In this document: in pieces, positions 18,776 to 54,552 of the stretch | How positions within the stretch are numbered: position 1 is the stretch's first letter | Layout of the letters: each line of letters starts with the position of its first letter | NCBI GenBank assembly: GCA_041650775.1 | Contig: JBAZKO010000003.1 | Location: forward strand, 1 to 60,596 | Length of the DNA: 60,596 nucleotides | Direction: 5' to 3' | DNA from: Patescibacteria group bacterium | GTDB taxonomy: Bacteria; Patescibacteriota; Patescibacteriia; Patescibacteriales; UBA12465 | Program-made: the position numbers and the translations under genes | Notes under the pieces: generated by a model | What the model was told of the DNA's origin: nothing | The model's input: the letters and a program-made list of their open reading frames with translations, nothing else | Database searches by the model: none

Positions 18776-21700
18776 CTATTCGGCGATTTTAATCAGCTCT
18801 AAAAATTTACTCTTTAATTCGATACGTAAATTCTCATTATTATCCACTCGGAAAGCGGTTTTGATGATTTTTGCCTTCCCTTCTTCCGTCAGCCGGAAAT
18901 AAACTTCGCTATCGCCGGGATAAAGGGAAAATATTTTTCGCAATTCCATCAGATTATCAGCCGCCAGGTCATGTAAAAAAATTATCCGCAAGGGATTGCC
19001 AGCTGGTTTAACCGCGGCCGGTGCCGGGGTTGTTTTTCTCTCTGGCTCAATCCGATTATATCCGCTTTCTCGGCCATTCCAGCCTCCCGGACGATAACTT
19101 TTCTTGACCGGCCCGCCTTCCAATAATAGTTTCTTAAAATCATCGACTGATTTTCCCGCTTCCAAGGGGTTCAGAAGAAAAGCGCGGTTGACCAAAACTT
19201 TCACCTCTTGATCCTTTTCCGATAATTTACTGTCGGTTATAATCGCCCGCCCTTCGACCCACAAATCGGGCGTCTCTTTCAGCAGGCGCGGGAAAATCAA
19301 AAGTTCGACCGTGTTGGTCGCATCTTCCAATTTTACAAACAGCATCGATTCTCCTTTGCGCGTCAATATTTTTTTAATGGTCGAAATAATCCCGGCGACG
19401 ATTATCCGATCATCGCCTTTATGTTTCCCCAGTTCCACCAAAGGAACGGCGTAACCAGCCAGATAAGGACGAAAATAATTATAAGGATGTTCGCTGACAT
19501 ACAAACCTAGGAGTTCTTTTTCCCAAATCAATTTTTCATTCTGTTCCGCTTCCGCCGCCGGATTAAGCGCCGGCCGGCCGGCATCAGCCGTGGGCAAATC
19601 GGAAAATAGACTGCTTTGTTTATTGTCTTTGGATTTAGCCGTTTCTTTATTGAAACTCAAAAGGCGTTCCATGTTTCCCAGAATCTGCCCGCGTTCACCG
19701 AAACTATCCAGCGCCCCGCTTTTTACCAGACTTTCTAAAGATTTCTTGTTTAAATCCTTGTCGGTAATTCTTTCTAACAAATCGAAAATATCCTGATAAG
19801 GGCCATTCTCTTTTCTTTCTCTGATGATTTCTTCGACGATATGCTCGCCGACATTTTTAATCGCTTTCAATCCGAACCGGATAGTATCGGCTTTTTCTTC
19901 CGCTTGGATGGCGCGATTCTCTTTCGTTCCGGCCGTTACAACCGTAAAAGTGCCAAAAGATTCATTAACGTCCGGGGCCATGATCTTAATGCCCATATTA
20001 CGACACTCTTCGATTTCAATCGCCACTCGGTCGGTGTCTCCTTGGTCGGAAGTCAGAAGCGCGGCCATAAATTCCACCGGCCAATGCGCCTTTAGATAAG
20101 CGGTCTGATAGCCGATTAAAGCGTAACAGGCGGCGTGCGAACGATTAAAACCATAACCGGCGAACGGTTCGATAAACGAAAAGACTTTCTCCGCCAGTTC
20201 TTTATAAACGCCGTTCTTAACACAACCCTCGATGAACTTCTCTTTCTGTTCGGCGAGCAACGAGGCGATTTTTTTACCCATGGCTTTCCTTAGGACATCG
20301 GCCTGTCCCATAGTAAATCCAGCCAAGTCGCGGGCGATTTGCATGACTTGTTCCTGATAAATAGCGACACCATAAGTCTTTTCCAGAATCGGCGCCAGTT
20401 TTTGGTGCAAATATGATACTTTTTTACGTTGATGCTTCCCGGCGATATAATCCGGAATCCATTCCATCGGTCCCGGTCGATACAGAGCGACCATGGCGAT
20501 AATGTCTTCAAAAACCGTCGGCTTGAGCTCTCGCAGGTATCTTTTCATGCCGGAAGATTCAAACTGGAAAACGCCAGTCGTTTCGCCCTCTTGAAATAAT
20601 TTATAAGCTCTGGCGTCGTCGAGCGGAATCTCATCAATATTTATTTCCAAACCGCGGGTATTCTTGATAATTTTTAAAGCTGATTCGATAATCGTTAAAT
20701 TTTTCAAGCCCAAAAAATCCATTTTCAACAAACCCAGGTCTTCGATCGGATGGAGCGAATATTGGGAAATAATACTGCGGTCGGAAGAAGACGCATATTG
20801 AATCGGAACATATTCGGTCAGCGGATTCTTGGTGATCAGCACGCCGCAAGCGTGCGTAGAAGCATGTCGGGCGACGCCCTCCAGACGTTTCGCGTAATCC
20901 AGGATACGCTTCGCCGCCGGCTCTTTAGCGTACATTTCCCGAAGTTCCGGTACGGTTTTCAGCGCTTCGTCCAACTTCATGAACATCGGAATGCTTTTGG
21001 AAATCTTGTCGCAGTAATCATAAGGCTCATCAAGGACGCGACCGACATCACGCACGGCGGCGCGGGCCGCCATGGTTCCGAAAGTGATGATTTGGGCGAC
21101 ATGATCTTTCCCATATTTTTCCTCGACATAATTTATCACTTCGCCGCGCCGGATATCGGCAAAATCCATATCAATATCGGGCATGGAAATACGATCCGGA
21201 TTCAAGAACCGTTCAAAAAGCAAATCATACTTAAGCGGATCAAGGTTGGTGATGCCGGTCAGATAACAAACCAAAGAACCGGCGGCACTGCCGCGTCCCG
21301 GACCGACCACGATCTTGTTGTCTTTCGCCCAGTTGATAAAATCGGCGACAATCAAAAAATAAGACGGCCAGCCCATCTTGGCGATAACCGATAATTCATA
21401 ATCCAGACGTTCTCTTATCTTTTCCAACTCGGCCGCGCCGGCGTCCGGGAACCTTTTAACCATTCCCCGCTCGCACCACTGACGCAGGTAAGAATTGCCG
21501 TCATATCCCGCCGGCACTTCGAAATGCGGCAGTTGGATATTGCCCAGTTCGATTTCCACATTGCACATCGCCGCGATTTTCAAAGTATTGGCGGCCGCTT
21601 CGGGAACATCTTTAAAAGCGGCGATCATTTCCGCGTTGGGTCGCAAAGAATAATCACCCAGGCCGAGCATCTTCATCCGGTCGGTATCGGTAATTTTTTT

Positions 21701-22381
21701 CTTATTCTGCAGGCACAATAGGATATCCTGCGCTTCCGCGTCTTCTTTCTTTAGATAATGCGCGTCATTGGTCGCGACCAGCGGAATATTCAATTCGCGC
21801 GAAAAGGCAATCAGGGTTTTATTCACTTTTTCCAAATCGGCCAATTCGGGATGATCCATTATTTCTAGATAAAAATTATCCTGCCCGAATAGCTGATTAT
21901 ATTCCTGGATCCTTTTTTTCGCTTCGCTTAATTTATCGGCGGAAATAAGCCGGGGGATTTCGCCGGCCAGACAGGCCGTACAGGCAATCAACCCTTCATG
22001 ATGTTGGCTTAAAATTTCCCAGTCGATTCTGGGCTTATAATAAAAACCTTCAATATGAGCATGCGACACTATCTTAATCAGATTCTTATAGCCGACCAGG
22101 TTTTTAGCCAAAAGAAGCAAGTGAGCGCTCCGGCCATCTTCGCGGGTATTCTTGTCAAAACGCGAACCAGGCGCCAGGTAAGTTTCCACTCCGATAATCG
22201 GCTTAATACCGGCTTTCTTGGCCTTCTGATAGAATTCTATAACCCCGTACATCGTGCCGTGATCGGTAATGGCGACAGCCGGAGAACCCTGTTCTTTGGC
22301 ATAATTAACCATCTCGTCCAGTTTAGTCAGGCCGTCAAGCAAGGAATAATGGCTATGGTTGTGGAGATGGACAAAAGACAT
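18776..22381 (-). CDS. dnaE: DNA polymerase III alpha subunit
   Basis: PHP domain (HLHNHSHYSLLDG), GRGSAAGS, PDIDMDF, FNRSHAACYA and OB-fold; no intein seen. Confidence 0.98.
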   Translation of the reverse strand: MSFVHLHNHSHYSLLDGLTKLDEMVNYAKEQGSPAVAITDHGTMYGVIEFYQKAKKAGIKPIIGVETYLAPGSRFDKNTREDGRSAHLLLLAKNLVGYKNLIKIVSHAHIEGFYYKPRIDWEILSQHHEGLIACTACLAGEIPRLISADKLSEAKKRIQEYNQLFGQDNFYLEIMDHPELADLEKVNKTLIAFSRELNIPLVATNDAHYLKKEDAEAQDILLCLQNKKKITDTDRMKMLGLGDYSLRPNAEMIAAFKDVPEAAANTLKIAAMCNVEIELGNIQLPHFEVPAGYDGNSYLRQWCERGMVKRFPDAGAAELEKIRERLDYELSVIAKMGWPSYFLIVADFINWAKDNKIVVGPGRGSAAGSLVCYLTGITNLDPLKYDLLFERFLNPDRISMPDIDMDFADIRRGEVINYVEEKYGKDHVAQIITFGTMAARAAVRDVGRVLDEPYDYCDKISKSIPMFMKLDEALKTVPELREMYAKEPAAKRILDYAKRLEGVARHASTHACGVLITKNPLTEYVPIQYASSSDRSIISQYSLHPIEDLGLLKMDFLGLKNLTIIESALKIIKNTRGLEINIDEIPLDDARAYKLFQEGETTGVFQFESSGMKRYLRELKPTVFEDIIAMVALYRPGPMEWIPDYIAGKHQRKKVSYLHQKLAPILEKTYGVAIYQEQVMQIARDLAGFTMGQADVLRKAMGKKIASLLAEQKEKFIEGCVKNGVYKELAEKVFSFIEPFAGYGFNRSHAACYALIGYQTAYLKAHWPVEFMAALLTSDQGDTDRVAIEIEECRNMGIKIMAPDVNESFGTFTVVTAGTKENRAIQAEEKADTIRFGLKAIKNVGEHIVEEIIRERKENGPYQDIFDLLERITDKDLNKKSLESLVKSGALDSFGERGQILGNMERLLSFNKETAKSKDNKQSSLFSDLPTADAGRPALNPAAEAEQNEKLIWEKELLGLYVSEHPYNYFRPYLAGYAVPLVELGKHKGDDRIIVAGIISTIKKILTRKGESMLFVKLEDATNTVELLIFPRLLKETPDLWVEGRAIITDSKLSEKDQEVKVLVNRAFLLNPLEAGKSVDDFKKLLLEGGPVKKSYRPGGWNGRESGYNRIEPERKTTPAPAAVKPAGNPLRIIFLHDLAADNLMELRKIFSLYPGDSEVYFRLTEEGKAKIIKTAFRVDNNENLRIELKSKFLELIKIAE

Positions 22382-22438
22382 GAAAAAATAGGTTATCCGG
22401 ACTTTATCATTTTAATATAAGGAATTAAGGATAGCAAC

Positions 22439-22467
22439 TTGACAACTTTTTATTAATTTCCTATAAT
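22439..22467 (+). promoter_or_regulatory. Perfect-consensus sigma70 promoter, back-to-back with the dnaE promoter
   Basis: TTGACA-N17-TATAAT on plus; TTGCTA-N17-TAAAAT on minus (22409-22437) faces dnaE. Confidence 0.85.
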
Positions 22468-22473
22468 ATAATC

Positions 22474-22651
22474 AAGTTCTTTTTAATAATTCTCATAGGA
22501 TTCATAGGTTTATTTTTTAGGGTTAATTCTTAGGGTTTAGTTTTTTAGAGTTAGTAATTAGGTTTTAGTGGTTAAGTTTTTAATGATTGGTTAGTTAGTT
22601 TATGTTATGGGTTTGGTTCGGAGGCTTCTAATGACGAAGCCTCCTTTTTTT
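22474..22651 (+). ncRNA. Candidate UAG-rich, C-depleted small RNA
   Basis: Lies between a consensus promoter and an intrinsic terminator; no ORF over 10 codons before the terminator; 11 TAG in 22496-22598; no C in 22530-22618. Confidence 0.6.
22620..22651 (+). terminator. Intrinsic terminator of the candidate sRNA
   Basis: GGAGGCTTC-N7-GAAGCCTCC-T7. Confidence 0.85.
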
Positions 22652-22678
22652 ATATGTTTTTATATGCCAAGACTTTTT

Positions 22679-22705
22679 AAAAACAGCCCAGAGCTGATGG
22701 GCTGT
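22679..22705 (-). terminator. Intrinsic terminator of parAB
   Basis: ACAGCCCA-N7-TGGGCTGT followed by a T-run on the minus strand. Confidence 0.7.
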
Positions 22706-22726
22706 CGCTAAGCGCCGGGATTGATA

Positions 22727-23605
22727 TTATTTAATTTTCCTAGTTATTTCATTCAGCTCTTCTTCGCTATAAAAATCAATCAAAATTTTACCGCCTTTCC
22801 CCTGCCTTTTTATTTCCACTTTCGTGCTTAGATATTCCCCCAATTCTTCTTCTTTCGCTCGGTCAAAGTAATCTTTCGGCCTGGCGTCTTTAGTTCCACC
22901 CAATCTTTTTATTTCTTTGTCAGTCTGCGCCACGGTCAAATTCTGGCGCAGAATCTTTTTCAGCATATTCAACTGCTTTGCTTCGCCCTCCAGACCCAAA
23001 AGATATTTGGCGTGCGCCTCCGTAATCTTCCCGCCCGCCAAAGCGTCCTGAATCGCCGCCGGCAGAGATAACAGGCGTAAAGCGTTGGCGACGCTGGACC
23101 GGGCTTTGCCCAGCTTCTTAGCCGCTTCTTCCTGAGTAATATTGAATTCCTCGATCAATCTTTTATAAGCCCGAGCGCTTTCCAGCGGATTCAAGTCCTC
23201 GCGTTGTAAATTTTCAATCAAAGCCAACTCTAATTTTTTTTGCGCTTTCTCGTCCCGGACGATAACCGGCACTTCTTTCAGACCGATGATCTTCGCGCTA
23301 CGCAAACGGCGTTCGCCAGCAATCAGTTCAAAGCGATCGCCTTTTTTCGTTACAATCAAAGGCTGGATAATCCCGTGCTGTCTGATCGATTCAGCTAAAT
23401 CATTCAAAGCGCTCTCCGAAAAATTCGTCCGCGGCTGTTGTGGGTTGATATCGATTCTTTCGGGGCTGATCTTTAAAATCCGATCGCTGTCGCGGAGTAA
23501 AAAAGTTTCTTCTTCGGCCGCGCCAGACTTAAAGGGATTCTGGCCATAAACAACGGTCTTTTTGGGAATCAGCGAGCCGAGTCCTCGGCCTAAACCTTGA
23601 GGCAT
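22727..23605 (-). CDS. parB: Chromosome partitioning protein ParB/Spo0J
   Basis: GLGRGLGSLI, NPQQPR, LIAGERRLR and ENLQREDLNPLE motifs; HTH. Confidence 0.96.
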   Translation of the reverse strand: MPQGLGRGLGSLIPKKTVVYGQNPFKSGAAEEETFLLRDSDRILKISPERIDINPQQPRTNFSESALNDLAESIRQHGIIQPLIVTKKGDRFELIAGERRLRSAKIIGLKEVPVIVRDEKAQKKLELALIENLQREDLNPLESARAYKRLIEEFNITQEEAAKKLGKARSSVANALRLLSLPAAIQDALAGGKITEAHAKYLLGLEGEAKQLNMLKKILRQNLTVAQTDKEIKRLGGTKDARPKDYFDRAKEEELGEYLSTKVEIKRQGKGGKILIDFYSEEELNEITRKIK

Positions 23606-23655: not shown

Positions 23656-24420
23656 CTATCTTTCCAAACTTAAAATTTCTCTCGCCAGTCCTTCGTAAGC
23701 TTTCCCGCCCTTGGATTTCGGATCATAGTGCAAAATCGAGCGGCCGTAACTCGGCGCTTCGGCCAGTCGGACGCTACGCGGAATGACCGAACGGAAAATA
23801 CGGTTCGGAAAATATTTATACAATTCTTCCATCACGGATTCGGACAATTTATTACGGCGGTCGAACATGGTTATGACCGCGCCCATTATTCCCAAAGCCG
23901 GTTTCAGATTATTTTGAACCAAACTGATTGTTTCCAATAACTGGCTAAGGCCTTCCAGCGCGAAATACTCGCTTTGGATGGGAATCAAAACTTCGTCGGC
24001 GGCCACCAGGCTGTTAACGGTCAATAACCCCAAAGAAGGCGGACCGTCGATAATTATGTAATCAAAATCTTTTTTTACTTCGTCCAAGACATTAGCCAGC
24101 CGAAACTCGCGGTTGTCCAGATTAACCATTTCCACGCCGGCACCGGCCAGCGACATCGTCGCCGGAGCGACTTTTAGTCCGGATTGGAGAGTCCGTTTTA
24201 TTATCTGCGGCAAAGGCTTTTCGCCGATCAGCGCTTCATAAATTCCGGCTTCCAGAGCGCGGTGATCGAGACCCAAGCCGGAAGTGGCGTTCGCCTGCGG
24301 ATCGACGTCAATCAAAAGAACCTGCCGGCCGAGATGAGCCAAATAGGCGCCGATATTAACGGCGGTGGTGGTTTTCCCAACCCCGCCTTTTTGATTAACG
24401 ATGGCGATGGTTTTACTCAT
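23656..24420 (-). CDS. parA: Chromosome partitioning ATPase ParA/Soj
   Basis: NQKGGVGKTT, IDVDPQANAT and LAEAPSYG motifs. Confidence 0.96.
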   Translation of the reverse strand: MSKTIAIVNQKGGVGKTTTAVNIGAYLAHLGRQVLLIDVDPQANATSGLGLDHRALEAGIYEALIGEKPLPQIIKRTLQSGLKVAPATMSLAGAGVEMVNLDNREFRLANVLDEVKKDFDYIIIDGPPSLGLLTVNSLVAADEVLIPIQSEYFALEGLSQLLETISLVQNNLKPALGIMGAVITMFDRRNKLSESVMEELYKYFPNRIFRSVIPRSVRLAEAPSYGRSILHYDPKSKGGKAYEGLAREILSLER

Positions 24421-54354: not shown

Positions 54355-54552
54355 TTAAGCGCGCTTAACGTTAACCGCGTTCATTCCTTTCGGAGATCTT
54401 TCTGTTTCAAAAGTGACGGCGTCACCTTCGCGAAGTTCGTTGAATTGGACACCAACCAAAGCATTGCTATGGAAGAATAAATCCTTTTCTTGACCTTCAG
54501 CGGTAATGAAACCAAAACCTCTGTCAGTTAGAGTTTTAATAGTACCAGTCAT
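54355..54552 (-). CDS. cspA: Cold-shock domain protein
   Basis: RNP1 (RGFGFI) and RNP2 (LFFH) motifs; 65 aa. Confidence 0.9.
   Translation of the reverse strand: MTGTIKTLTDRGFGFITAEGQEKDLFFHSNALVGVQFNELREGDAVTFETERSPKGMNAVNVKRA

What the first reader, a model, noticed from the sequence alone, without database searches (positions are those of the whole stretch)
22439..22651. Promoter-to-terminator non-coding unit with 11 UAG triplets and an 89-nt C-free tract
Seen: a perfect TTGACA-N17-TATAAT, ~175 nt with no meaningful ORF, and a strong GC hairpin plus T7. TAG occurs at 22496, 22505, 22518, 22531, 22538, 22546, 22552, 22559, 22566, 22592 and 22596 (often UAGG, twice UUAGGG). There is no C from 22530 to 22618, so the body cannot form G-C stems. 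Established: single-stranded repeat RNAs act as protein sponges (CsrB/RsmZ with GGA), and TRAP and some RRM proteins bind UAG repeats. Inference: a sponge or scaffold sRNA for an RNA-binding protein, or a GG-rich G-quadruplex former, between dnaE and parAB.
Basis: partly seen in the sequence, partly recalled or inferred. Interest (0 to 1): 0.72.

Follow-up and report, generated by a model that had tools for sequence, protein, structure and literature searches.

The report
Fast-evolving G/U-rich small RNA gene
This is very probably a real but unannotated small non-coding RNA gene, one of at least ten related copies that sit between parB and dnaE in a small group of Candidatus Falkowbacteria; its conserved signal is a repeated GGUUAAUU word rather than UAG, and its function is untested.

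Summary
It comprises a perfect TTGACA-N17-TATAAT promoter (22439-22467), about 150 nt without a credible ORF, a 9-bp GC hairpin plus U7 (22620-22651), 11 TAG triplets and an 89-nt C-free tract.

Two claims weaken. The TAG count is largely explained by dinucleotide composition (11 against 8.6±1.6, P=0.10). TRAP and HutP are absent from the genome.

New here: the unit belongs to a family. Nine further promoter-to-terminator units occupy the same spot, between the parB terminator and the divergent dnaE promoter, in related Falkowbacteria. They share:
- the promoter;
- a 5' box, AGUUC(A/U)UUU(U)AA, which resembles BoxA;
- a C-poor body with one to four GGUUAAUU or near-GGUUAAUU words (exact in 7 of 10; 0 of 500 shuffles reach that);
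- GC-rich terminators with different sequences.

The three bodies of this type that were folded are unstructured (G041 and G045 fold significantly), and repeat number varies. The closest sister species lack the unit. There is no Rfam match and no RNA-seq data.

Most likely it is a multivalent single-stranded sRNA that binds a protein. The best candidate is the genus-wide 85-aa RRM-1 protein, in a genome without Hfq, CsrA or Rho. That mechanism is inferred, not shown.

The parts
22409..22437 (-). Divergent dnaE promoter (TTGCTA-N17-TAAAAT). Its -35 lies back to back with the unit's -35, one base apart.
   Evidence: The same arrangement (TTGTCA-17-TAAAAT) is found in relatives L258, L130 and L260.
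22439..22467 (+). Promoter of the unit: TTGACA-N17-TATAAT, 12 of 12.
   Evidence: It is orthologous to 11-of-12 promoters at the same place in L130, L258 and L260 and aligns with the other members. Both hexamers are unchanged in a strain about 3% diverged.
22475..22487 (+). 5' leader box AGTTCTTTTTAAT, starting about 1-2 nt after the predicted start site (~22474). This is the best-conserved transcribed element of the family and is BoxA-like.
   Evidence: Alignments (family form CAGTTCATTT(T)(T)AA). The same box follows other strong promoters in this genome. Comparison with the BoxA consensus GYTCTTTAANA is from 10.1101/091223.
22490..22619 (+). Unstructured G/U/A body. It is C-free from 22530 to 22618. 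It holds GGGTTAATT at 22520-22528 and near-copies GGTTTATT (22507-22514), GGTTAAGT (22570-22577) and GGTTAGTT (22589-22596). All 11 TAG triplets lie here.
   Evidence: The body folds no better than shuffles (z -0.33).
22500..22569 (+). Degenerate tandem repeat: period 28 with 2.6 copies (also period 13 with 2.9 copies).
   Evidence: An analogous 21-nt duplication occurs in L130, and three GGTTAATT copies (each inside a GGGTTAATT or TGGTTAATT word) in L258.
22620..22651 (+). Intrinsic terminator: 9-bp stem, 7-nt loop, U7.
   Evidence: In strain X5 the change A22637G keeps pairing as U·G. All ten family members end in GC-rich hairpins of different sequence followed by U5-9.
22674..22696 (-). Terminator-like hairpin plus T-run ending parB. 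It converges on the unit.

Best explanation
The unit is a gene for a small non-coding RNA of about 177 nt. It belongs to an undescribed family restricted to one sub-clade of a Candidatus Falkowbacteria genus.

Shown or read from sequence:
- Each member is transcribed from a near-consensus sigma-70 promoter, back to back with the dnaE promoter.
- Each member is stopped by its own intrinsic terminator before it reaches parB.
- The RNA begins with a conserved AGUUC(A/U)UUU(U)AA box. It continues as a C-poor stretch carrying a variable number of GGUUAAUU, GGGUUAG and UAGG words. In the window, L130 and L141 this stretch folds no better than shuffles. Tandem duplication and deletion change the copy number.

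Inferred:
- The RNA works as a multivalent single-stranded ligand, either a decoy/sponge or a partner sRNA, for a protein that binds single-stranded RNA.
- The best candidate is the 85-aa RRM-1 protein that is conserved across the genus.
- The 5' box may be a NusB/S10 (BoxA-type) loading site.
For: Gene-like anatomy:
- A 12-of-12 promoter and a strong terminator lie on the same strand.
- There is no ORF.

Orthology and family:
- Nine further units sit at the same parB-dnaE position: G041, G045, L130, L141, L258/L259, L260/L261, L262, L265 and L256.
- They were found by synteny and a profile.
- The promoter and the 5' box align across members.
- All ten terminators fold at -14 to -22 kcal/mol (z -2.9 to -6.1) although their stem sequences differ.

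Constraint on the body:
- GGTTAATT is exact in 7 of 10 bodies and GGTTAAT in 8 of 10. None of 500 dinucleotide-shuffle sets reaches 7.
- G exceeds C in all eight GGUUAAUU-type bodies (skew +0.27 to +0.68), against a negative local skew.

Single-strandedness: the bodies of the window, L130 and L141 fold no better than shuffles (z -0.33, -0.07, +0.83).

Persistence:
- Near-identical copies occur in four further landfill or groundwater runs.
- A strain about 3% diverged keeps the promoter hexamers and the terminator pairing. It adds no C in the tract.

Candidate partner:
- The RRM_1 protein scores 72 bits and is present in 60 of 69 genomes of the genus.
- Hfq and CsrA were not found by tblastn. 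Rho, TRAP, HutP and Nop proteins are absent.
- Literature: the small single-RRM protein RbpB of Bacteroides, a lineage without Hfq, CsrA or ProQ, binds ssRNA. It preferred a G/U/A-only motif, GUAGGAUA, and not a C/U-rich one (10.1101/2021.04.27.441718). CLIP linked it to about 50 sRNAs (PMC13370968). The window RNA contains AUAGGAUU.
Against: - There is no expression evidence of any kind.
- The RRM protein occurs just as often in species without the unit (G053, G007), so co-occurrence gives no signal.
- The closest sister species (G053, G051, G007, L143, L263, L264, L266) lack the unit, so it is dispensable.
- Two members (G041, G045) have structured, less skewed bodies without GGUUAAUU.
- The motif test ignores shared ancestry.
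- The RRM gene's own 5' UTR holds no such motif.
- RbpB affinity is only micromolar, and the specificity of the Falkowbacteria protein is unknown.
Confidence: 0.4

Rival explanations
1. A base-pairing sRNA. The conserved single-stranded 5' box, the GGUUAAUU words or the (C)ACCUCC element next to the terminator pair with mRNAs (for example at Shine-Dalgarno or start regions) to control translation or stability.
For: - The 5' end is conserved, as in many seed-bearing sRNAs.
- L130, L141 and L260 carry an ACCUCC element that matches the 16S 3' end GGAUCACCUCCUUUC; L265 has the related CUACCUC.
- No Hfq is needed in many lineages.
Against: - Watson-Crick complementary words of 11-13 nt elsewhere in the genome are no more frequent than for shuffled RNAs (246 and 49 hits against 255-451 and 35-145).
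- The complement of GGUUAAUU is not enriched anywhere.
- The 5' box is shared by unrelated transcripts in the genome, so it is not a private seed.
- The body turns over too fast for a fixed target.
Confidence: 0.2
2. A transcribed but sequence-neutral unit. What matters is the strong divergent promoter, through supercoiling or polymerase competition at the dnaE promoter, or nothing at all. On this reading the T-rich, C-free sense strand reflects C-to-T deamination of the non-template strand under heavy transcription plus replication slippage.
For: - The -35 boxes are back to back, 1 bp apart.
- The body diverges rapidly, and copy number changes even within the species: a 4-nt TTAG deletion and a 1-nt insertion in X5.
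- The nearest relatives have lost the unit.
- T is 49% and C 7% on the sense strand.
- The TAG count is explained by composition.
Against: - GGTTAATT is retained in 7 of 10 otherwise unalignable bodies.
- Other ORF-less units with strong promoters in the same genome are not C-free, for example the one at C1:134977.
- dnaE keeps its promoter and works without the unit in G053-type genomes.
- Terminators are maintained by compensatory turnover.
Confidence: 0.22
3. A DNA-level element: a centromere-like or iteron array for ParB, a DnaA/oriC-associated unwinding tract, or a G-quadruplex-forming strand.
For: - The unit sits next to parAB.
- The assembly has no canonical parS at all, even allowing 3 mismatches, so the ParB site of this organism is unknown.
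- The region holds direct repeats.
Against: - The unit is absent from the closest relatives, whose ParB is 80-88% identical.
- Extreme strand asymmetry together with a same-strand promoter and terminator points to RNA.
- There is no DnaA-box cluster in the spacer and no GC-skew switch in the window.
- Repeat spacing is irregular at 12-15 nt.
- There are only three GGG runs.
Confidence: 0.05
4. A guide-RNA or antitoxin-type repeat array: a TIGR or CRISPR-like array, or a ToxI-like type III antitoxin.
For: - It is a tandem-repeat RNA ending in a terminator, in a Patescibacteria genome.
- TIGR arrays are reported in this group and sometimes lie next to parB-like genes (PMC12045711).
Against: - There are no alternating 8-12-nt dual repeats with 9-nt spacers and no unit of about 36 nt. 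The periods are 13 and 28 and degenerate.
- A CCA box C is impossible inside a C-free tract.
- The genome has no Nop-domain (Tas) protein.
- There is no co-directional downstream gene that could be a toxin.
Confidence: 0.02

Closest known systems
CsrB/RsmZ-type protein-sponge sRNAs
   Same: A stand-alone promoter-to-terminator sRNA. Its body is a variable number of copies of one short word, and copy number differs between species.
   Different: The word here is GGUUAAUU/GGGUUAG, not GGA. It lies in unstructured RNA rather than in hairpin loops. CsrA was not detected. Sequestration has not been shown.
sRNAs bound by small bacterial RRM-1 proteins (Bacteroides RbpB; 10.1101/2021.04.27.441718, PMC13370968)
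   Same: The host lacks Hfq, CsrA and ProQ-type chaperones but has a conserved single-RRM protein of about 85 aa. RbpB prefers a G/U/A-only word containing UAGGA, and a similar word (AUAGGAUU) is present here.
   Different: The phylum is different, and no binding data exist for the Falkowbacteria protein. No multi-site sponge RNA has been described for any bacterial RRM protein, to my knowledge.
TRAP (trp leader) and HutP (hut leader) UAG-repeat RNAs of Bacillus
   Same: Several UAG triplets in single-stranded RNA. Six of them (22531-22566) are 6-8 nt apart, close to HutP's UAG-N4 spacing (PMC2425495 was listed; the spacing itself is from my own knowledge).
   Different: Both proteins are absent from the genome. 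TRAP needs 2-3-nt spacers. Those RNAs are cis-acting leaders and not free sRNAs. UAG is not the conserved word of this family.
BoxA (NusB/NusE site) of rRNA leaders and of the suhB 5' UTR
   Same: GUUCUUU..AA lies directly downstream of a strong promoter on an untranslated RNA. The critical C4 is kept. NusB, S10, NusA and NusG are encoded. One other unit in the genome matches GYTCTTTAANA perfectly.
   Different: The window copy has two extra U (9 of 11 ungapped). The 16S leader of this genome shows no clean copy. Rho, the usual target of antitermination, is absent.
TIGR arrays (PMC12045711)
   Same: A repeat-bearing RNA with a terminator in Patescibacteria, with occasional parB-like neighbours.
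   Different: It fails the architecture tests, and the genome has no Tas protein.

Membership tests
Bacterial sRNA gene with sigma-70 promoter and intrinsic terminator | Consensus -35/-10 with 16-18-nt spacing, and a GC hairpin plus U-tract on the same strand with no ORF between them | tested here: met
   The feature is repeated in nine orthologous loci.
Bacterial sRNA gene with sigma-70 promoter and intrinsic terminator | Detected transcript | not testable with these tools
   No RNA runs hold the locus. Only DNA runs were found.
Any Rfam family | Covariance-model match | tested here: not met
   Nothing at gathering score in the window. Nothing overlapping the unit at E<=1 in the locus or in four relatives' spacers.
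CsrB/RsmZ sponges | Many GGA motifs in hairpin loops, and CsrA encoded in the genome | tested here: not met
   Only two GGA in the unit. The body is unstructured. No CsrA by tblastn.
TRAP-binding RNA | 9-11 (G/U)AG triplets separated by 2-3 nt, and TRAP (PF02081) encoded in the genome | tested here: not met
   Spacers are 1-23 nt. No PF02081 hit in the genome.
HutP-binding RNA | Two sets of UAG-N4-UAG-N4-UAG, and HutP (PF09021) encoded in the genome | tested here: not met
   One stretch has UAG at steps of 7, 8, 6, 7 and 7 nt. No PF09021 hit in the genome.
TIGR array | Alternating edge and loop repeats of 8-12 nt with 9-nt spacers (about 36-nt unit), UG and CCA boxes, and a Nop-domain Tas protein | tested here: not met
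   Periods of 13 and 28, degenerate. No C in the tract. No PF01798 hit. Criteria are from PMC12045711.
BoxA / Nus-factor site | GYTCTTTAANA near the 5' end of the transcript, and NusB and S10 present | tested here: inconclusive
   The window has GTTCTTTTTAA: 9 of 11, or a full match with a 2-nt insertion. NusB and S10 are present. A perfect copy lies downstream of the C2:12555 promoter. The 16S leader has no clean copy. The consensus for this phylum is unknown.
6S RNA | A rod-like fold of about 180 nt with a central bubble | tested here: not met
   The whole RNA has z -1.2 and the body z -0.33.
G-quadruplex former | Four G-runs of 3 or more separated by short loops | tested here: not met
   Three GGG runs at 22520, 22533 and 22610.
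parS / ParB centromere | The TGTTNCACGTGAAACA palindrome, conserved with ParB | tested here: not met
   No match with up to 3 mismatches in the window or the genome. The unit is absent in close relatives that have ParB.
Ligand of a bacterial RRM-1 protein | An RRM-1 protein is encoded and binds the RNA | tested here: inconclusive
   The protein is present, but it is found genus-wide regardless of the unit. Binding cannot be tested here.

The most novel reading that the evidence does not exclude
The family is the first sponge-type or decoy sRNA for a bacterial RRM-1 RNA chaperone. It would be an unstructured, C-free array of GGUUAAUU/UAGG sites that titrates the single 85-aa RRM protein of these reduced Patescibacteria genomes. 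Nus factors might load on it through a BoxA-like 5' box. Copy number would be tuned species by species through repeat expansion.
Probability: 0.15. Interest if true: 0.75.

Novelty: new member of a known kind. Interest (0 to 1): 0.5.

Why it matters
To my knowledge almost nothing is known about RNA-based regulation in Patescibacteria, where the genomes are tiny. This genome lacks Hfq, CsrA and Rho.

The locus offers several things:
- A concrete, strongly promoted sRNA family with a simple repeated word and an obvious candidate partner, a genus-wide RRM-1 protein. The pair can be tested in vitro without culturing the organism.
- A view of an sRNA gene evolving by repeat gain, repeat loss and outright deletion within one genus.
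- A lead to a BoxA-like leader box shared by several strongly promoted units in the genome. This bears on what Nus factors do in a lineage without Rho.

If the RNA proves to be neutral, the locus is still a clean example of strand-asymmetric decay under transcription.

Tried and rejected
- Rfam at gathering and at E<=1: nothing.
- BLAST of the unit against 69 genus genomes, and a sequence model against 316 genomes of the order: only G000, G041 and G045 match. Weak hits in a sister genus (L270, L274) are not in a parB-dnaE context and match mainly the promoter plus AT-rich sequence.
- Phage collection: no match.
- RNA-seq runs: none.
- Recoded ORF: the TAG triplets fall in all three frames, so this was rejected.
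- Trans-target search by complementary words: at the level of shuffled controls.
- Genome-wide enrichment of GGTTAATT, TTAGGGTT and related words: none.
- TRAP, HutP, Nop/Tas and Rho by Pfam model, and CsrA and Hfq by tblastn: absent. Because Rho is absent, the idea that C is avoided to escape Rho was dropped.
- Origin or terminus of replication: no skew switch.
- parS and DnaA boxes: none in the spacer. A search for a repeated palindrome that could be an alternative parS found nothing convincing.
- Co-occurrence of the RRM gene with the unit: uninformative, because the protein is nearly universal in the genus.
- GGUUAAUU or UAGG words in the RRM gene's own 5' UTR: none.
- Relic of the small hydrophobic ORF that other species carry in this spacer: the minus strand is full of stop codons and the terminators are specific to the + strand, so this is unlikely, though it is not excluded as an origin.
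- ParB homologues between 88% and 100% identity, to find intermediate relatives: none exist in the collections.

Full report
**1. The observation**

- Promoter: TTGACA (22439-22444), 17 nt, TATAAT (22462-22467).
- Terminator: a 9-bp GC-rich hairpin (22620-22644) followed by T7. It folds at -16.7 kcal/mol, z -4.1.
- TAG triplets: eleven, at the listed positions.
- C-free tract: no C between 22530 and 22618.
- ORFs: the only + strand ORF of 30 aa or more (22607-22711) reads through the terminator.
- Neighbours: Pfam confirms DNA polymerase III alpha (18776-22381, minus strand), ParB (22727-23605, minus strand) and ParA (23656-24420, minus strand).

The unit is transcribed divergently from dnaE. 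The dnaE promoter (22437-22409) has its -35 one base from the unit's -35. The unit converges on parB, which has its own terminator-like hairpin at 22696-22684.

**2. Is it more than chance?**

Partly.
- The 89-nt run is the longest C-free run in the 886-kb assembly. It is rare in dinucleotide shuffles of the unit (P=0.002).
- G-free runs of 93 and 84 nt exist elsewhere. They lie inside AT-rich coding regions.
- The distinctive feature is therefore non-coding DNA with about 27% G and no C, on a strand whose surroundings have C above G (GC skew -0.07 to -0.10).
- The TAG density is the genome maximum (11 in 105 nt, next highest 8).
- Dinucleotide-preserving shuffles of the unit already give 8.55±1.56 TAG (P=0.10). 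The other family members show the same weak excess (summed P=0.02).
- All three stop codons lack C, so a T/A/G-only sequence is bound to be full of them.

**3. The organism and the locus**

The window is contig 3 of an 886-kb, 26-contig genome that is 97% complete. Titles of its closest relatives name Candidatus Falkowbacteria and the Patescibacteria group.

The order parA-parB-dnaE is conserved in nearly all sampled genomes of the genus, but the parB-dnaE spacer ranges from 0 to about 2,470 nt. The spacer holds different things in different species:
- nothing at all;
- one or two small hydrophobic minus-strand ORFs, in many species with longer spacers;
- an inserted gene;
- a GC-rich RNA-like element of about 400 nt (G071, G074, L138);
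- a + strand promoter-to-terminator unit like the one in the window, in a small sub-clade.

**4. A family, not a singleton**

Nucleotide BLAST found no homologue of the unit. Reading the spacers, however, showed the same CTGACAACTTGACA promoter block and a similar 5' end in G041 and G045.

Fetching spacers through ParB relatives added further units at the identical place and strand:
- from metagenome contigs: L130 and L141;
- from assemblies: L258/L259, L260/L261, L262, L265 and the short L256.

A profile built from five members recovers the later ones with E of 1e-11 to 1e-14.

Across 316 genomes of the order, a sequence model finds only G000, G041 and G045 with strong scores. The family is therefore narrow.

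Seven close relatives keep the TTGACA block but run straight into the parB terminator (G053, G051, G007, L143, L263, L264, L266). L257 keeps only the promoter block and the 5' box. So the unit is dispensable and has been lost, or gained, within the sub-clade.

**5. What the members share**

(a) The promoter. TTGACA is invariant, the spacer is 17 nt, and the -10 is TATAAT, TATTAT, TATCAT, TATAGT or TATATT. The tool scores 11-12 of 12 in the four loci scanned.

(b) A 5' box, (C)AGUUC(A/U)UUU(U)AA. This is the best-conserved transcribed segment.

(c) A C-poor body.
- C is 7-17% of the RNA in the eight GGUUAAUU-type members (20% in G041 and G045), and most of it sits in the terminator.
- GGUU occurs 1-9 times (3-9 in all but the short L256 and G045).
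- GGUUAAUU occurs in 1-3 exact copies, or 1-4 allowing one mismatch, together with GGUUUAGG and GGGUUAG.
- GGTTAATT is exact in 7 of 10 bodies and GGTTAAT in 8 of 10. In 500 sets of dinucleotide shuffles no 8-mer is shared by more than 5 bodies.
- This test does not correct for common descent, but the bodies are otherwise nearly unalignable.

(d) Repeat structure.
- The window has a 28-nt unit in 2.6 copies.
- L130 has a 21-nt duplication.
- L258 has three GGTTAATT copies within repeated TTAGGGTTAATT-like words.

(e) An ACCUCC element just before the terminator in L130, L141 and L260, with the related CUACCUC in L265. In the window, CCUCC forms the descending arm of the terminator.

(f) A stable GC-rich hairpin plus U5-9 in all ten members, with quite different stem sequences. 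Energies are -14 to -22 kcal/mol and z-scores -2.9 to -6.1.

The bodies of the window, L130 and L141 fold no better than shuffles (z -0.33, -0.07, +0.83). G041 and G045 are a structured variant (z -2.5, -2.8) without GGUUAAUU.

**6. Within-species evidence**

Contigs from five landfill or groundwater DNA runs carry the locus. X1, which holds 99% of the sampled words, is probably the sample the window was assembled from.
- X3 and X4 are identical or nearly identical across the parts of the unit they cover.
- X2 differs at two positions in the promoter region, neither inside a hexamer (22460 in the spacer and 22472).
- X5 is about 3% diverged.

In X5:
- both promoter hexamers are intact;
- the stem change A22637G still pairs, as U·G;
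- the body changes are A>G, T>G and G>T, plus a 4-nt TTAG deletion and a 1-nt insertion. None introduces a C.

The body substitution rate (about 2%) is close to that of the adjacent parB codons (about 3%). This shows persistence, not strong purifying selection.

**7. What the 5' box may be**

The box is not private to this RNA.
- Among 95 near-consensus promoters in the genome, 14 have AGTTC within 40 nt downstream. The background rate is 2.7%.
- Seven of them read AGTTC(T/A)TT(T/A/G)A.
- One (downstream of the C2:12555 promoter) matches exactly the gamma-proteobacterial BoxA consensus GYTCTTTAANA of Baniulyte et al. (10.1101/091223).
- G074's 400-nt RNA also begins AAGTTCTTTTTTAATG.
- NusB, S10, NusA and NusG are encoded.

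Against a BoxA reading:
- the window copy has two extra U;
- the 16S leader shows no clean copy;
- Rho is absent.

I therefore treat a NusB/S10 site as a lead at roughly one chance in three. It does argue against reading the 5' end as a target-specific seed.

**8. Mechanism**

The same-strand promoter and terminator and the extreme strand asymmetry point to an RNA, not to a double-stranded DNA site. So do the lack of structure in the bodies that were folded and the retention of one short word in variable copy number.

The RNA probably works through single-stranded, multivalent recognition. Candidate readers were checked in the genome:
- no TRAP, HutP, Nop/Tas or Rho by Pfam model;
- no Hfq or CsrA by tblastn;
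- present: an 85-aa single-RRM protein (RRM_1, 72 bits), a cold-shock-domain protein (window 54367-54552) and a KhpA-like KH protein.

Published work on Bacteroides, another lineage without Hfq, CsrA or ProQ, gives a precedent.
- The small RRM-1 protein RbpB binds ssRNA.
- It prefers the G/U/A-only word GUAGGAUA over a C/U-rich word (10.1101/2021.04.27.441718).
- It crosslinks to about 50 sRNAs (PMC13370968).
- The window RNA contains AUAGGAUU and is built only of G, U and A over 89 nt.

That makes the RRM protein the best candidate, but the link is inferred.
- The protein is present in 60 of 69 genomes of the genus whether or not they carry the unit.
- Its own 5' UTR has none of these words.

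**9. Rivals**

A base-pairing role gets no support.
- Complementary words in the genome are at shuffle level.
- The complement of the motif is not enriched.

A neutral transcript is the most serious rival.
- Here only the divergent promoter matters, or nothing does. The C-free, T-rich sense strand would come from transcription-associated deamination and slippage.
- It explains the fast turnover, the indels within the species and the losses in sister species.
- It does not explain the retention of GGTTAATT. It also does not explain why other strongly promoted ORF-less units in the genome keep their C.

DNA-level readings are unlikely.
- There is no parS or DnaA-box cluster here.
- There is no skew switch.
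- The unit is absent in relatives that have nearly the same ParB.
- There are only three GGG runs.

A TIGR, CRISPR-like or ToxI-like array fails the architecture and partner tests.

**10. Verdict**

- The reading as a free-standing sRNA is well supported by comparative anatomy (about 0.8), though transcription is unproven.
- The emphasis on UAG is misplaced. The conserved word is GGUUAAUU, and the UAG count largely follows from composition.
- A protein-sponge or partner role, with the RRM-1 protein as candidate, is the best mechanistic guess. Combined with the gene call, I give it about 0.4.
- It is a new sRNA family of a known general kind. It is narrow in distribution and dispensable, so interest is moderate.

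Noticed in passing
L050 (G071) 76-515; L062 (G074) 61-510; L138 ~2469-2628: In three other Falkowbacteria the same parB-dnaE spacer holds a + strand element of about 400-450 nt that is GC-rich (46%). In G074 it has a TTGACA-N17-TATAAT promoter, an AAGTTCTTTTTTAATG start and a terminator. The three share a core (TTAGCTAAGGCT ... GCGCCGAAGCTA). There is no Rfam match at E<=1 and no homologue in this genome. It looks like an unannotated large structured RNA.
   Followed up: partly
Genome-wide; e.g. C1:7944, downstream of the C2:12555 promoter, C1:135017, downstream of the C26:2187 promoter, C1:156540, downstream of the C19:6640 promoter; window 22475-22487: A leader box AGTTC(T/A)TT(T/A/G)A follows strong sigma-70 promoters far more often than chance: AGTTC follows 14 of 95 promoters against a 2.7% background. 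One copy is a perfect GYTCTTTAANA (BoxA consensus). NusB, S10, NusA and NusG are present but Rho is absent.
   Followed up: partly
Whole assembly (26 contigs): There is no canonical parS (TGTTTCACGTGAAACA, up to 3 mismatches) anywhere, although parA and parB are intact. No repeated palindrome stands out as an alternative.
   Followed up: partly
Spacers L044, L045, L047, L049, L051, L052, L054, L056-L058: Many genus members with longer spacers carry one or two small hydrophobic minus-strand ORFs, with a Shine-Dalgarno sequence and a terminator, between parB and dnaE.
   Followed up: no
C1:134977 (+) and C26:2187 (-): Two paralogous ORF-less units behind near-consensus promoters. They share AGTTCTTTATATG and a core ...TTCGAGCGACACAATGTGGTTTA.AAGAAAGTCGCAAGTAACAAGGAATGG. 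They are candidate ncRNA genes.
   Followed up: no
C6:34375 (+), C13:7145 (-), C4:33922 (+): Further short promoter-hairpin-terminator units without ORFs. For example, C6 has TTTAGTTCAATAGGAACCACAACGGAACTA followed by a terminator. They are candidate sRNAs.
   Followed up: no
C15:491-790 (minus strand, upstream of the RRM gene at 236-490): The RRM-1 gene has a TTGACT-N17-TATACT promoter and a 5' UTR of about 115 nt. The UTR contains a terminator-like hairpin (AAAAGAGCGGACCAATAATCCGCTTTTTCTTT), which could be an attenuator or an autoregulatory site.
   Followed up: no
L270 (G237) 1501-1651; L274 (G235) 1501-1661: A sister genus has TTGACA-N17-TATAAT units followed by CCAGTTTATAAAAATT, an A/T-only body of about 100 nt and two hairpin terminators. 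They are not next to parB or dnaE and give only weak model hits.
   Followed up: partly
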